Assembly: GCA_026770705.1 (NCBI GenBank)
Contig: JANJGN010000011.1
Span: 13,826,001 to 13,890,000, forward strand
Length of the DNA: 64,000 bases
DNA from: Isurus oxyrinchus
Lineage: Eukaryota
Direction: 5' to 3'
A program made the position numbers. Positions 57,001-60,000 of this stretch are shown in pieces (the first letter of the stretch is position 1; the number at the start of each line of letters is the position of its first letter).

Positions 57001-60000
57001 ATCACGAGGGGCCTGGACAGAGTAGATCGACAGAAATTGTTCCCATTGGCAGAAGGGTCAAGACCAGATGACACTGATTTAAGGCGATTGGCAAAAAAAA
57101 AAAAGGATGATGGCAAGATGAGAAAAAATAGTTTGACATAGCAAGTGGTTAGGATCTGGAATGCACTGCTTGTGTGTGGTGGAAGCAGGGTCAATCGAGG
57201 CTTTCAAAAAGGAGTGGGATAATTATCTGAAGAGAAAAACAGTGCAGATCTATGGAGAAAGGGCAGGGAGGTTGGGCTAACTGCGTTTCTTTGGCGGAGA
57301 AGCAGCATAGACATGATGGGATGAATGGCCTCCTGTACTGCAACCATTCTAAGATTCCGTGTGGAAGGTGCCATAAAAATGCAAATTCTTTCTTTATCTT
57401 CAAGAACTTCCCTGAACTGCTAGCTATCCAGCTCTTTTAGGATTAATCAATGGGTTTTTTTTGGGGTGGTGATTACTGCACCTGTCCGCTATTCTGTCAG
57501 AAAAAAAAGTCCAATTTCTTGCCTCACTCGAAACCTCTTAAAATTCGTATTCATTTCTTGCAGCTGCTTAATCACACTCTGAGTTAAATAGCTTGCTTAC
57601 ATCTACACCATCTATGCCAAGTGGTTATGGTACTGGGTTTGTAACCCCAAGATCAAGAGTTCAAATCTCACAATGGGAAAAAACTATAGAAAGGCTCGTT
57701 GGTCTAGAGGTATGATTTTCGCTTCGGGGTTTTCGTAAAATGATCGTGCGAGAGGTCCCGGGTTCAAATCCCGGACGAGCTCTCGTGTGTTATCACTTGT
57801 GATGCATGTATTTTGCTTGGCCTCAATGGCTGAGTGGTTATGGTACTGGGTTTGTAACCCCAAGATCGAGAGTTCAAATCTCACAATGGCAAACTATGAA
57901 ACAATGTAACTTCATCTGAAAACAGATGGAAACGGGTTTGTACTCAAAAGAGTATCAAGAGTTCAAATCTCACAATGGCAAACTATGAAACAATGTAACT
58001 TCATCTGAAACAGATGGAAATGGGTTTGTACTCGAAAGAGTTACTTAAGTCACGAAATACATTTCTCGAAAGAGTATCAAGAGTTCAAATCTCACAATGG
58101 CAAAACTATGAAACAATGTAACTTCATCTGAAATGGATGGAAACGGTTTGTGCTCGAAAGAGTATCTATGCCTCCCACATTTTAAAGTCATGGATCATGC
58201 CCTCCTCTTCCCTTATCCACTGAAAAACAACCTCAATTCTATGAATCTCTTATCATTTTTTAAAATCATAACTCAGCTCCTAACGTCCCCAACCTTCACT
58301 CTTTTCTGAAGTCTGTCTCCTTGCACCAGTCTGTTTAGAGGTCTGAAGCTCAAAAGCACACGTAATGTCCTCCATGTACAAGGCTAAAATGGTCTTTTTT
58401 GACCTATTTCCAGAGTGTCCCCAGGATGTGTATGAGTGTTTGATTGGCCTTGTTCACAGTAGCTGCACGGCAACTGAATACCTTGAGCATGAAGTTGACA
58501 ATCACATCAGATCCTTCCCCACTCTGCAGCATAGCCAATGGGCAGTCATTTTTACGTATCCATATTTCATGCTCCCTATCGTAATGTCCATTAACTCACA
58601 CATCTGTACATCAAAACCTACTTAATGCACAGTTCAGGGGATGGAAGAATCCGAATGTTTCATTCTTCAGGCTTTCTATGACTTCAAAATTAACTTGCTA
58701 GTTGGAACAAGTGAGTGATGGACCTGTTTGTAAGGATGTTGGGAAGAGATGTAATTCGATTTAATAGCAGTAAAACACACATATTTTCTGATTTTACATT
58801 CAGTGGCGAGGCACCACTGCAATGTGGAGAATTTTCTGAAAATATAAATCGGAAGTGAGAATTTGACAAGCCTCAGTCCGTGAGGTGCCTAGTCTCCACT
58901 TTGCTCATTAAACCTGTAATTGGACAAGCTCATTTGTCTAATTTGCGAGCTTAACAAGTTCAATTTTGGTAATTGGTCTTGACATTGACCGATCTCTGTT
59001 CAAATGTGATGGGGTTATCCATCCATGTCTTCTCTAGAAACCTGCCCCTCCGACTGCTGAGCTATTTCTAGCATGAGACGGTATGCAAGCAGCTTCAGCC
59101 CACAGAGAACTAAGGTAGCAAAATAGTAATGTCACAGGGATATTAATCCTGTGGCCCAGGCAAATGCTGTTGGGGCATGGGCTTAAATCCCACCATGGTA
59201 ACTGCTGGAACTTAAGCTCTGTTAACTAAATCTAGGTTTAAAAGTGAGCCTGAGTAATTGCTGATTGCCATCAGTAATAGTGACCATTATAACTGTCATC
59301 GAGTATCATAAAAACCCATTGGGTTCATTCTCTTAGGGAAGGAAATTTTCCATCCTTACCCTCTCTGCCCTACAGGTGACTCCAGACCTATAACAGTACA
59401 GTTGACTCTCAACTGTCCTCTGAAATGGCTTAACAAGCCATTCAGTTCAAGGGCAATTAGGGATGGGCAATAAGTTCTGACCTTGCCAGCAATGCCCACA
59501 TCACAGGAAAGAATAAATTTACAAAGAAATTCACCCAGATGGGACCGATTTCGACCCTGCCCACTGACTATTTGCCTTGACTTGTGGATGCAGATTTACA
59601 GGACAGGAGTACAAAATGAATGAGCCTTGAGTATCTTTGCAAATTGGAAGGAATACTGCCCAACCGTAAACAGAGTGGTGGATGTGTGAAAAATAGACCT
59701 GTGTCTACTATATAACTTGAACCAAAGAATGAGCTATTGAACAATACAATTAAGACTGTTAATGATAAATACAGTTGGAGGCAGTTACCGACAACGTATT
59801 TCCTGAGCTGATGTGTTAATAGAAGTATCATGTCAAAAAACATCATACCTGGAATGGGCGGGTTGCCTTATAAGGAAAGGTTGGATAGACTAGGCTTGTA
59901 TCCGCTGGAACAAAAACAGAATTACCTGGACAAACTCAGCAGGTCTGGCAGCATCGGCGGAGAAGAAAAGAGTTGACGTTTCGAGTCCTCATGACCCTTC

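What the first reader, a model, noticed from the sequence alone, without database searches (positions are those of the whole stretch)
57619..58163. TSD-flanked mobile cassette built from an array of tRNA modules
Seen: between 9-bp direct repeats lie a 5'-truncated tRNA-Thr-like module, a near-intact tRNA-Pro with an intron-like insert, a T4 run, a full tRNA-Thr(TGT)-like module and three ~90-bp repeats, all on one strand and inside an old decayed repeat. There are five B-boxes (GTTCAAATC) in 545 bp. Known: ordinary SINEs have one decayed tRNA head and a LINE-like or simple-repeat tail. Inference: a retroposon that carries a real, unspliced tRNA gene from a tandem tRNA unit, possibly the 3' end of a larger element. 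It could disperse tRNA genes or TFIIIC sites. Best candidate here for an undescribed system.
Basis: partly seen in the sequence, partly recalled or inferred. Interest (0 to 1): 0.75.

Follow-up and report, generated by a model that had tools for sequence, protein, structure and literature searches.

The report
Composite SINE-plus-pre-tRNA retrocopy in a shark
A 545-base insertion in a shark-like genome joins pieces of a tRNA-Thr-derived repeat to a copy of an unspliced proline tRNA precursor; it is most likely a one-off fusion made when a reverse transcriptase hopped between small RNAs.

Summary
Exact 9-bp direct repeats (57610-57618, 58164-58172) abut a 545-bp block. The block holds, in order and on one strand:
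- a 5'-truncated tRNA-Thr(TGT)-like head;
- a tRNA-Pro(CGG) with an 18-nt insert at the canonical intron site;
- a 32-nt trailer ending in T4;
- a full-length head;
- about 3.4 tandem units of roughly 88 bp.

All five GTTCAAATC boxes in the 64-kb window lie in this block. The claim that it sits inside an old decayed repeat could not be confirmed.

There is no second copy in the window, and no eukaryotic genome collection was available. Copy number, an empty site and Dfam/Repbase identity therefore stay untested.

The junctions fall at RNA ends. The tRNA-Pro starts 0-3 nt after the first module, and its trailer's T4 ends 5 nt before the next head. I therefore favour a tripartite chimeric retrocopy made by template switching (SINE RNA, then pre-tRNA-Pro, then SINE RNA). 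This resembles the mouse B2-U6-L1 chimeras.

The tRNA-Pro carries two internal T4 runs and is probably dead. An amplifying composite SINE family is not excluded.

Interest is moderate: a new variant of a known kind.

The parts
57610..57618 (.). Left copy of the 9-bp target-site duplication ATCTATGCC
   Evidence: Exact; one of only 2 occurrences in the window. Placement control: 12 of 20000.
57619..57692 (+). Module A: a 5'-truncated tRNA-Thr(TGT)-like head (from about tRNA position 13) plus the first ~12 nt of the spacer (AAACTATAGAAA)
   Evidence: 67 matches, 2 mismatches and 4 gap columns against 57833-57901. 97% identity over 61 nt. Rfam tRNA 19.4 bits over model positions 10-63. Similarity to head B stops abruptly at 57619/57620 (alignment).
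57693..57782 (+). tRNA-Pro(CGG) copy with an 18-nt insert (57729-57746) at canonical position 37/38. No CCA. G1.U72 and U27.G43 wobble pairs. T4 runs at 57716-57719 and 57730-57733.
   Evidence: ARAGORN in intron mode. Rfam tRNA 44.4 bits against a gathering score of 29. Antisense translation aligns to two intron-less tRNA-Pro-derived ORFs with a gap of exactly 6 aa, i.e. 18 nt. T4 runs.
57783..57814 (+). 32-nt 3' trailer of the tRNA-Pro, ending in T4 (57811-57814), a Pol III terminator-like run
   Evidence: Sequence and T4 positions. A T4+ run ending 1-6 nt upstream of a random position occurs at 741 of 21800 positions.
57815..57819 (+). 5-nt linker GCTTG between the T4 and head B. It could be a 5' leader of the SINE RNA or extra nucleotides added at the jump.
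   Evidence: Sequence only; its origin is inferred.
57820..57891 (+). Head B: a full-length but degenerate tRNA-Thr(TGT)-like head. A box TGGCTGAGTGG at 57827-57837; B-box-like GAGTTCAAATCTC at 57870-57882.
   Evidence: Rfam tRNA 24.0 bits (below the gathering score of 29) over model positions 8-63, with anticodon loop TTTGTAA. Exact A-box consensus match. Translation is 52% identical over 27 aa to tandem tRNA-Thr(TGT)-like ORFs.
57849..58163 (+). About 3.4 tandem units of roughly 88 bp, each made of anticodon arm, T arm and a 45-nt spacer. The spacer hairpin CATCTG-AAAA-CAGATG is intact only in U1. Units: U1 57849-57934 (overlaps head B), U2 57935-58022, U3 58023-58144 (34-bp insert 58041-58074 bounded by CTCGAAAGAG), and partial U4 58145-58163.
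   Evidence: Self-BLAST 77-91%. Repeat families D1 and D4. Pairwise counts: U1/U2 79 match, 6 mismatch, 4 gap; U2/U3 84/3/36. nhmmer. TRF found none.
58164..58172 (.). Right copy of the 9-bp target-site duplication. Its first 3 nt (ATC) also continue the repeat unit, giving possible priming microhomology.
   Evidence: The BLAST unit similarity runs to 58166.
58180..58183 (+). First sense-strand T4 after head B. A Pol III transcript started at head B in situ would be expected to end here.
   Evidence: T4 list. The function is inferred.

Best explanation
A single LINE-driven, target-primed retroposition event inserted a chimeric cDNA built from three Pol III transcripts.

Proposed sequence of events (inferred):
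1. Reverse transcription began on a tRNA-Thr(UGU)-derived SINE-like RNA. This RNA consists of head B plus a body of ~88-bp tandem units. Priming may have used ATC microhomology with the nicked target.
2. The enzyme ran to the 5' end of that RNA.
3. It jumped to the U-tract 3' end of a nascent, unspliced pre-tRNA-Pro(CGG). It copied the trailer, the intron-bearing tRNA and no CCA, through to tRNA position +1.
4. It jumped again into the spacer of a second copy of the SINE-like RNA and stopped inside that RNA's head. This is the 5' truncation.
5. Repair produced the 9-bp duplication.

The tRNA-Pro copy is now a pseudogene. Head B keeps A- and B-box motifs and may still bind TFIIIC.

Shown: the anatomy, the direct repeats, the junction positions and the insert position. 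Inferred: the RNA intermediates, the template jumps and the LINE partner.
For: - An exact 9-bp repeat abuts both independently defined ends: 12 of 20000 random placements.
- Module A is 97% identical to head B but starts at about tRNA position 13, as expected for 5' truncation.
- All parts lie on one strand and there are no terminal inverted repeats.
- The tRNA-Pro has the form of a primary transcript. Its 18-nt insert sits at canonical 37/38 (only 2 of about 72 placements give this), it has no CCA, and its trailer ends in T4.
- Junction 1 lies at tRNA +1, with 0-3 nt of ambiguity (AAA).
- Junction 2 lies 5 nt after the T4. The chance of a T4+ run that close is 741 of 21800.
- The Pro segment has no direct repeat of its own, so it is not a later nested insertion (sequence).
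- All three sense-strand T4 runs lie in the Pro segment, so one continuous Pol III transcript of the whole cassette is unlikely.
- There is precedent. Tripartite chimeras with direct repeats, including mouse B2-U6-L1, are ascribed to double template switches (PMC2104539: abstract, sections 3 and 8). Chimeric SINEs formed by switching from a SINE RNA to 5S rRNA have been proposed (PMC3272025, passages). tRNA/L1 chimeras are reported (bioRxiv 10.1101/2025.02.02.635956, passages).
Against: - There is no poly(A), microsatellite or LINE-like 3' end. No similarity was found to the LINE 3' ends in the window, so the partner and the priming mode are unknown.
- The listed features of classic chimeras are only partly met. 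The 3' part is full-length rather than 5'-truncated, and the outermost 5' part is truncated rather than full-length.
- The second jump lands inside a spacer, not at a known RNA 3' end.
- The T4 inside the insert (57730-57733), if present in the donor gene, would have hindered its transcription.
- The absence of T4 in the SINE-like parts is not significant: 1394 of 5000 shuffles also have none.
- Only one locus was seen. Copy number, the donor gene and an empty site could not be examined.
- With looser boundaries, a shared 9-mer is not rare: 350 of 5000.
Confidence: 0.4

Rival explanations
1. One reading: one copy of an amplifying composite (complex) SINE family whose consensus is Thr-like head, tRNA-Pro, Thr-like head and ~88-bp repeats. 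It would be mobilised as a unit and would spread tRNA-Pro copies and B boxes.
For: - The retroposition hallmarks are the same.
- Complex SINEs built from several tRNA-related modules exist. SINEBase defines complex SINEs (PMC3531059, section 4). For the Twin SINE and the colugo t-SINE I saw titles only, in reference lists.
- A chimera like the one proposed can itself become a master copy.
Against: - There is one copy in 64 kb.
- Three sense-strand T4 runs lie between head A and head B, so Pol III would stop early.
- There is no recognisable tail.
- Neither the protein-space searches nor the string search of papers found another copy. This is weak negative evidence.
Confidence: 0.2
2. A retrocopy (or DNA-level copy) of a read-through transcript from a genomic locus where a tRNA-Pro gene sits among copies of the Thr-like repeat. 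The adjacency would be genomic, not made by the reverse transcriptase.
For: - T4 is only a weak Pol III terminator (recalled knowledge).
- Tandem tRNA-Thr(TGT)-like arrays exist in other genomes, to judge from ORFs with 2-3 such stretches.
- This model needs fewer template jumps.
Against: - The tRNA-Pro +1 abuts the upstream repeat with no 5' flank of its own.
- The next head starts 5 nt after the terminator. Both would be coincidences: 741 of 21800 for the T4 alone.
- The transcript would have to pass three T4 runs.
Confidence: 0.15
3. Not a mobile insertion. The block arose by local tandem duplication and rearrangement of an old SINE/tRNA cluster in situ, and the 9-mer is chance or part of the repeat.
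For: - The tail is plainly a product of local tandem duplication.
- ATC of the right 9-mer belongs to the unit.
- The left 9-mer loosely resembles the missing head 5' end (alignment; Rfam aligns its GCC to the D stem).
- Loose-zone control: 350 of 5000.
Against: - Strict placement control: 12 of 20000 for 9 bp, and still 279 of 20000 for 6 bp.
- Identity between the heads drops from 97% to no alignable similarity exactly at 57619/57620.
- The internal full head has a different 5' sequence from the 9-mer.
Confidence: 0.1

Closest known systems
Tripartite chimeric retroelements formed by double template switching (mouse B2 SINE-U6 snRNA-L1; Magnaporthe WEIRD-Mg-SINE-MGL). Source: PMC2104539, abstract and sections 3 and 8 read.
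   Same: Three RNA-derived parts are directly joined in one orientation and flanked by a short direct repeat. The middle part is a complete Pol III small-RNA copy ending at its U-tract. A SINE piece sits at the 5' side.
   Different: There is no LINE sequence and no A-rich or microsatellite 3' end. The 3' part is full-length rather than 5'-truncated, and the outermost part is truncated. The captured small RNA is an unspliced pre-tRNA with its trailer. The host is an elasmobranch, where the partner LINE is unknown.
[quoted passage not shown] I saw titles only, in reference lists; their content is recalled.
   Same: Several tRNA-related modules in tandem on one strand. An unprocessed tRNA precursor is the suggested source.
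   Different: Those are multi-copy families with a consensus. Here one locus was seen, two different tRNA types are mixed, one module still scores as a tRNA and carries an intron-like insert, and terminator runs are embedded.
tRNA/LINE-1 chimeric insertions in mammals (bioRxiv 10.1101/2025.02.02.635956, passages read): 21 loci, with 9-19 bp TSDs in 8 of 8 checked.
   Same: tRNA sequence co-inserted with another retroelement in one event, flanked by TSDs.
   Different: There the tRNA parts are mostly half-length and antisense, ascribed to twin priming. Here the tRNA is full-length, sense, unprocessed, and fused to SINE-like RNA on both sides.
Quasi-oligomeric SINEs such as CHRS, with an internal motif repeated in tandem (PMC3531059, passage read).
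   Same: A SINE-like body made of tandem internal duplications.
   Different: The unit here is ~88 bp and is itself the 3' two-thirds of the tRNA-like head plus a spacer. In CHRS the motif is ~20 nt.

Membership tests
SINE (SINEBase definition, PMC3531059 section 4) | Short (<1 kb), interspersed, non-tandem genomic repeat | tested here: inconclusive
   The length of 545 bp fits. Only one copy in the 64-kb window. Dispersal in the genome could not be examined.
SINE (SINEBase definition, PMC3531059 section 4) | [quoted passage not shown] | not testable with these tools
   No eukaryotic genome, Dfam or Repbase collection was available. The protein-space proxy found no close copy.
SINE (SINEBase definition, PMC3531059 section 4) | At least 60% identity to a tRNA species over at least 60 nt | tested here: inconclusive
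   Head B matches the Rfam tRNA model at positions 8-63 with 24.0 bits, below the gathering score of 29. Its translation is 52% identical over 27 aa to tRNA-Thr(TGT)-like ORFs. No tRNA nucleotide library was at hand for a direct identity figure.
SINE (SINEBase definition, PMC3531059 section 4) | Internal Pol III promoter (boxes A and B; an indication only) | tested here: met
   Exact A-box consensus at 57827-57837 (the consensus was recalled). B-box-like GTTCAAATC at 57872. This shows motif presence only; transcription was not tested.
SINE (SINEBase definition, PMC3531059 section 4) | 3' tail of simple repeats or a LINE-derived 3' region | tested here: not met
   The element ends ...GAAAGAGT(ATC) with no poly(A) or microsatellite. 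No similarity to any LINE fragment in the window. The CR1-like copies in the window end in (TTCTTTG)n or ATTCTAAG-type repeats.
Chimeric retrogene by RT template switching (features i-v, PMC2104539 section 3) | (i) The 5' part is a full-length copy of a cellular RNA | tested here: inconclusive
   The middle part (pre-tRNA-Pro, +1 to the terminator T4) is full-length. The outermost 5' part (module A) is 5'-truncated.
Chimeric retrogene by RT template switching (features i-v, PMC2104539 section 3) | (ii) The 3' part is a 5'-truncated copy, mostly of a LINE | tested here: not met
   The 3' part begins with a full-length head (57820) and contains no LINE sequence.
Chimeric retrogene by RT template switching (features i-v, PMC2104539 section 3) | (iv) Parts directly joined in the same transcriptional orientation | tested here: met
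   All modules lie on the + strand. There are 0-3 ambiguous nt at 57692/57693 and 5 nt between the T4 and head B.
Chimeric retrogene by RT template switching (features i-v, PMC2104539 section 3) | (v) Flanked by short direct repeats | tested here: met
   Exact 9-bp ATCTATGCC on both sides; 12 of 20000 in the placement control.
Functional nuclear tRNA-Pro gene | Cloverleaf scoring above the family threshold | tested here: met
   Rfam tRNA 44.4 bits against 29 in the local search. ARAGORN Pro(CGG) in intron mode. Default scans missed it.
Functional nuclear tRNA-Pro gene | No Pol III terminator (T4 or longer) inside the transcribed gene | tested here: not met
   T4 at 57716-57719 (D / anticodon stem) and at 57730-57733 (insert). 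That T4 terminates vertebrate Pol III is recalled knowledge.
Functional nuclear tRNA-Pro gene | Intron, if any, at canonical position 37/38 | tested here: met
   ARAGORN places the 18 nt after the base 3' of the anticodon. The 6-aa gap against intron-less copies agrees. Splicing competence was not tested; the minimum-free-energy fold shows no canonical anticodon-intron helix.
Complex tRNA-SINE (Twin / t-SINE type) | Multi-copy family sharing the same module junctions | not testable with these tools
   No genome collection for this organism.

The most novel reading that the evidence does not exclude
The cassette is one copy of a still undescribed elasmobranch composite SINE family. In this reading the family carries a splice-competent, intron-bearing tRNA-Pro(CGG) gene between tRNA-Thr-derived heads. 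It would then scatter tRNA-Pro genes and clusters of TFIIIC-binding B boxes through the genome. It would also show that cartilaginous fish have an intron-containing tRNA-Pro family, which (from memory) is not known in other vertebrates.
Probability: 0.12. Interest if true: 0.7.

Novelty: new variant of a known kind. Interest (0 to 1): 0.35.

Why it matters
If the chimera reading is right, this locus preserves a nascent Pol III transcript: a pre-tRNA with its intron and U-tract trailer, caught by a reverse transcriptase between two SINE RNAs. That would extend double template switching from mammals and a fungus to cartilaginous fish, and to SINE-only chimeras with no LINE part. It would also show one concrete route by which complex, multi-head SINEs arise.

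The locus also gives indirect evidence for an intron-bearing tRNA-Pro(CGG) gene in an elasmobranch.

If it is only a single dead locus, its interest is anecdotal. It would be one more cluster of B boxes that might bind TFIIIC.

Tried and rejected
- Default ARAGORN and Rfam gathering scans report no tRNA in the block. Only intron mode and a local E-value search reveal the tRNA-Pro.
- TRF found no array at 57000-59000, although BLAST, the repeat finder and nhmmer show the units.
- Search for other copies in the window, by BLAST with word size 9 and nhmmer --max, using the whole cassette, head B with its unit, unit U2, the Pro segment and both flanks. Nothing turned up beyond the cassette itself, apart from a weak tRNA-like match at 46895-46952 (E 0.078).
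- Protein-space proxy for other copies:
  - The 69-aa antisense ORF found 2 proteins among 6 candidates, both generic intron-less tRNA-Pro translations.
  - The 56-aa sense ORF, run against 1.84 billion representatives, gave 6 hits at E<=0.001. None was close. Five of them (P0124-P0128) look like tRNA-like translations, three of which (P0125-P0127) share our anticodon-loop motif and the other two fit by eye only. P0123 looks like an unrelated repeat.
  - Relatives of P0125 are all unnamed.
  - Short ORFs are poorly represented, so this is weak negative evidence.
- The paper string search for a 21-nt stretch of the head found 0 papers.
- Searches on elasmobranch SINEs and on tRNA-Thr gave no description of this element.
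- The search on vertebrate tRNA-Pro introns gave nothing usable.
- NUMT idea (mitochondrial tRNA-Thr and tRNA-Pro are neighbours): rejected. Both lie on one strand here, and the tRNA-Pro translation matches tRNA-Pro-derived ORFs, one of them from a 549-kb contig. The mitochondrial gene order is recalled.
- DNA transposon or MITE: rejected; there are no terminal inverted repeats.
- Later nested insertion of the Pro segment: rejected; it has no direct repeat of its own.
- RNA folds of the pre-tRNA, of head B with its spacer and of the last unit are no better than shuffles (z = -1.29, +1.25, -0.78).
- Absence of T4 from the SINE-like parts is not significant (1394 of 5000 shuffles).
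Full report
**Context.** The window has no N, 37.7% G+C and a CpG observed/expected ratio of 0.22. Bases 1-42081 are a 36-bp satellite. The remainder is rich in LINE fragments. A 276-aa reverse-transcriptase frame (61803-62633, minus strand) finds its best named relatives in sharks and rays at 53-67% identity. Bird and turtle CR1-type proteins follow at about 41-51% (120 of 6746 hits listed). 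I therefore take the window for an elasmobranch genome.

**Observation.**
- ATCTATGCC occurs only twice in the window, at 57610-57618 and 58164-58172.
- The ends can be defined independently of that repeat. Similarity of module A to head B begins at 57620. Similarity of the last unit to the other units ends at 58163-58166.
- With those ends, an exact 9-mer abutting both within +-3 bp was seen in 12 of 20000 random placements (8-mer 27, 7-mer 56, 6-mer 279).
- A loose control is far less rare: any shared 9-mer between 120-bp and 130-bp zones occurred in 350 of 5000. The strength of the evidence therefore lies in the placement.
- ATC of the right copy also continues the repeat unit, so the duplication is 6-9 bp.

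**Modules.** From 5' to 3':
- Module A (57619-57692) is 67 match / 2 mismatch / 4 gap against 57833-57901. It starts at about tRNA position 13.
- The tRNA-Pro(CGG) lies at 57693-57782.
  - ARAGORN finds it only with introns allowed.
  - Rfam scores it at 44.4 bits against a gathering score of 29, but only in a local search.
  - It has an 18-nt insert at 57729-57746.
  - The insert lies one base 3' of the anticodon, which is the canonical eukaryotic intron site. There is one base of placement ambiguity.
  - Two unrelated ORFs that are antisense translations of intron-less tRNA-Pro genes align to ours with a gap of exactly 6 residues.
  - There is no CCA.
- A 32-nt trailer ends in T4 (57811-57814). 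Five bases later, head B begins (57820).
- Head B has an exact A-box consensus match (57827-57837; the consensus is recalled) and the anticodon loop TTTGTAA. It scores only 24.0 bits and has no alignable acceptor stem.
  - Its translation resembles ORFs that hold 2-3 tandem tRNA-Thr(TGT)-like stretches: 52% identity over 27 aa to P0125.
  - Those proteins come from unnamed sources.
- From 57849 run about 3.4 units of roughly 88 bp. Each consists of an anticodon arm, a T arm and a 45-nt spacer; the spacer hairpin is intact only in the first unit.
  - U1/U2 is 79/6/4 and U2/U3 is 84/3/36. U3 holds a 34-bp insert bounded by a 10-bp repeat.
- All five GTTCAAATC boxes of the window lie here. The expected number is 1.22, and 3 of 100 shuffles reach 5.

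The two heads share the same degenerate features at 97% identity. They are therefore copies of one already non-tRNA source, not two decayed tRNA genes.

**What could not be confirmed.** The flanks have no other copy in the window, so 'inside an old decayed repeat' is unsupported. No second copy of any module exists in the window. The one exception is a weak tRNA-like match at 46895-46952 (E 0.078). Supplementary files of the papers were not opened; any SINE consensus lists they hold could bear on the novelty claim.

**Mechanism.** The direct repeat, the 5' truncation, the single orientation and the lack of inverted termini point to one target-primed retroposition event. The informative detail is where the internal junctions fall.
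- The tRNA-Pro begins at +1, directly after the spacer remnant of module A (0-3 nt of ambiguity).
- Its trailer's T4 ends 5 nt before a full-length head. A T4+ run that close is found at 741 of 21800 positions.
- The Pro segment has no repeat of its own.
- An intron-bearing, CCA-less tRNA that runs to its terminator is what a primary Pol III transcript looks like.
- All three sense-strand T4 runs lie in this segment, so a single Pol III transcript of the whole cassette is unlikely.

I therefore favour a tripartite chimera made by two template jumps: SINE-like RNA, then pre-tRNA-Pro, then a second SINE-like RNA. Mouse B2-U6-L1 and a fungal tripartite element, each with direct repeats, are the published analogues (PMC2104539: abstract, sections 3 and 8). 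A switch from a SINE RNA to 5S rRNA has been proposed for a chimeric insect SINE (PMC3272025, passages). The tRNA/L1 chimeras of mammals are mostly half-length and antisense (bioRxiv 10.1101/2025.02.02.635956, passages).

**Against this reading.**
- There is no A-rich, microsatellite or LINE-like 3' end, and no partner in the window.
- The 3' part is full-length and the outermost part is truncated. This is the reverse of features (i) and (ii) of the classic chimeras.
- The second jump lands inside a spacer.
- The T4 within the insert would have hampered transcription of the donor if it was already present there.
- The lack of T4 in the SINE-like parts is not significant (1394 of 5000 shuffles).

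My confidence is 0.4.

**Rivals.**
- An amplifying composite SINE family (0.2).
- Read-through from, or a copy of, a genomic tRNA/SINE cluster (0.15).
- In-situ rearrangement with a chance repeat (0.1).

**State of the tRNA-Pro.** It carries G1.U72 and U27.G43 pairs and two internal T4 runs. It is best regarded as a pseudogene. My count of three transitions from the usual vertebrate tRNA-Pro is from memory, not from a call.

**Comparison and novelty.** By SINEBase's criteria (PMC3531059, section 4), the length and the promoter motifs fit, the tail does not, and copy number is untestable. I therefore do not file it as a SINE family. It works like a chimeric retrocopy but meets only some of that class's listed features. 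Searches of the held papers found no description of such an element. That covers only the library searched.

I rate it a new variant of a known kind, with an interest of 0.35. The boldest reading not excluded is a composite family dispersing an intron-bearing tRNA-Pro gene. I put that at about 0.12.

Noticed in passing
window 1-42081: A 36-bp satellite: about 1157 copies at 68% matches. It has a 2725-bp higher-order period; the commonest 24-mer spacing is 2725, with 5123 pairs. Identical 131-aa open frames recur at 8626 and 11351, and one differing by a single residue at 5901.
   Followed up: partly
window 59909-60366; also 50375-50670, 51514-51643, 6666-6805, 9391-9530, 12116-12255: A ~190-bp repeat forms an inverted pair (59909-60094 vs 60179-60366, 91%). 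It recurs near 50.4-51.6 kb and three times within the satellite, at 2725-bp spacing. It looks foldback- or MITE-like. Rfam microRNA models hit it far below threshold.
   Followed up: no
window 61803-63435 (-) and 56860-57360 (+): CR1-like LINE fragments with RVT_1 matches and shark and ray relatives. The minus-strand copy ends in (TTCTTTG)n near 61650-61690. A decayed copy ends about 250 bp upstream of the cassette.
   Followed up: partly
window 46895-46952 (+): A weak tRNA-like stretch (…GAGTTCAAATTCCAC…) resembling head B (nhmmer E 0.078; sequence). It could be an older relative of the same head or a different tRNA-derived SINE.
   Followed up: no
window 58041-58074: A 34-bp insert in the third ~88-bp unit, bounded by the 10-bp direct repeat CTCGAAAGAG (58031, 58065). 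It contains a short palindrome, GTTACTTAAG/CTTAAGTCAC.
   Followed up: no
window 57729-57746: The 18-nt insert in tRNA-Pro(CGG) sits at the canonical intron position. This hints that this elasmobranch has, or had, intron-bearing tRNA-Pro genes. From memory, vertebrate tRNA introns are limited to a few other isoacceptors. I found no paper on this.
   Followed up: partly
window 50816-51371: Two overlapping open frames on opposite strands give nearly the same 147-149-aa product. This implies a ~450-bp inverted duplication. Pfam found nothing for the minus-strand frame, the only one of the two scanned.
   Followed up: no
window 42607-42777: A long, AT-rich hairpin at the edge of the satellite. The Rfam MIR8007 model scores 61.9 bits, far below its gathering score of 195. 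It is probably an inverted repeat rather than a microRNA.
   Followed up: no
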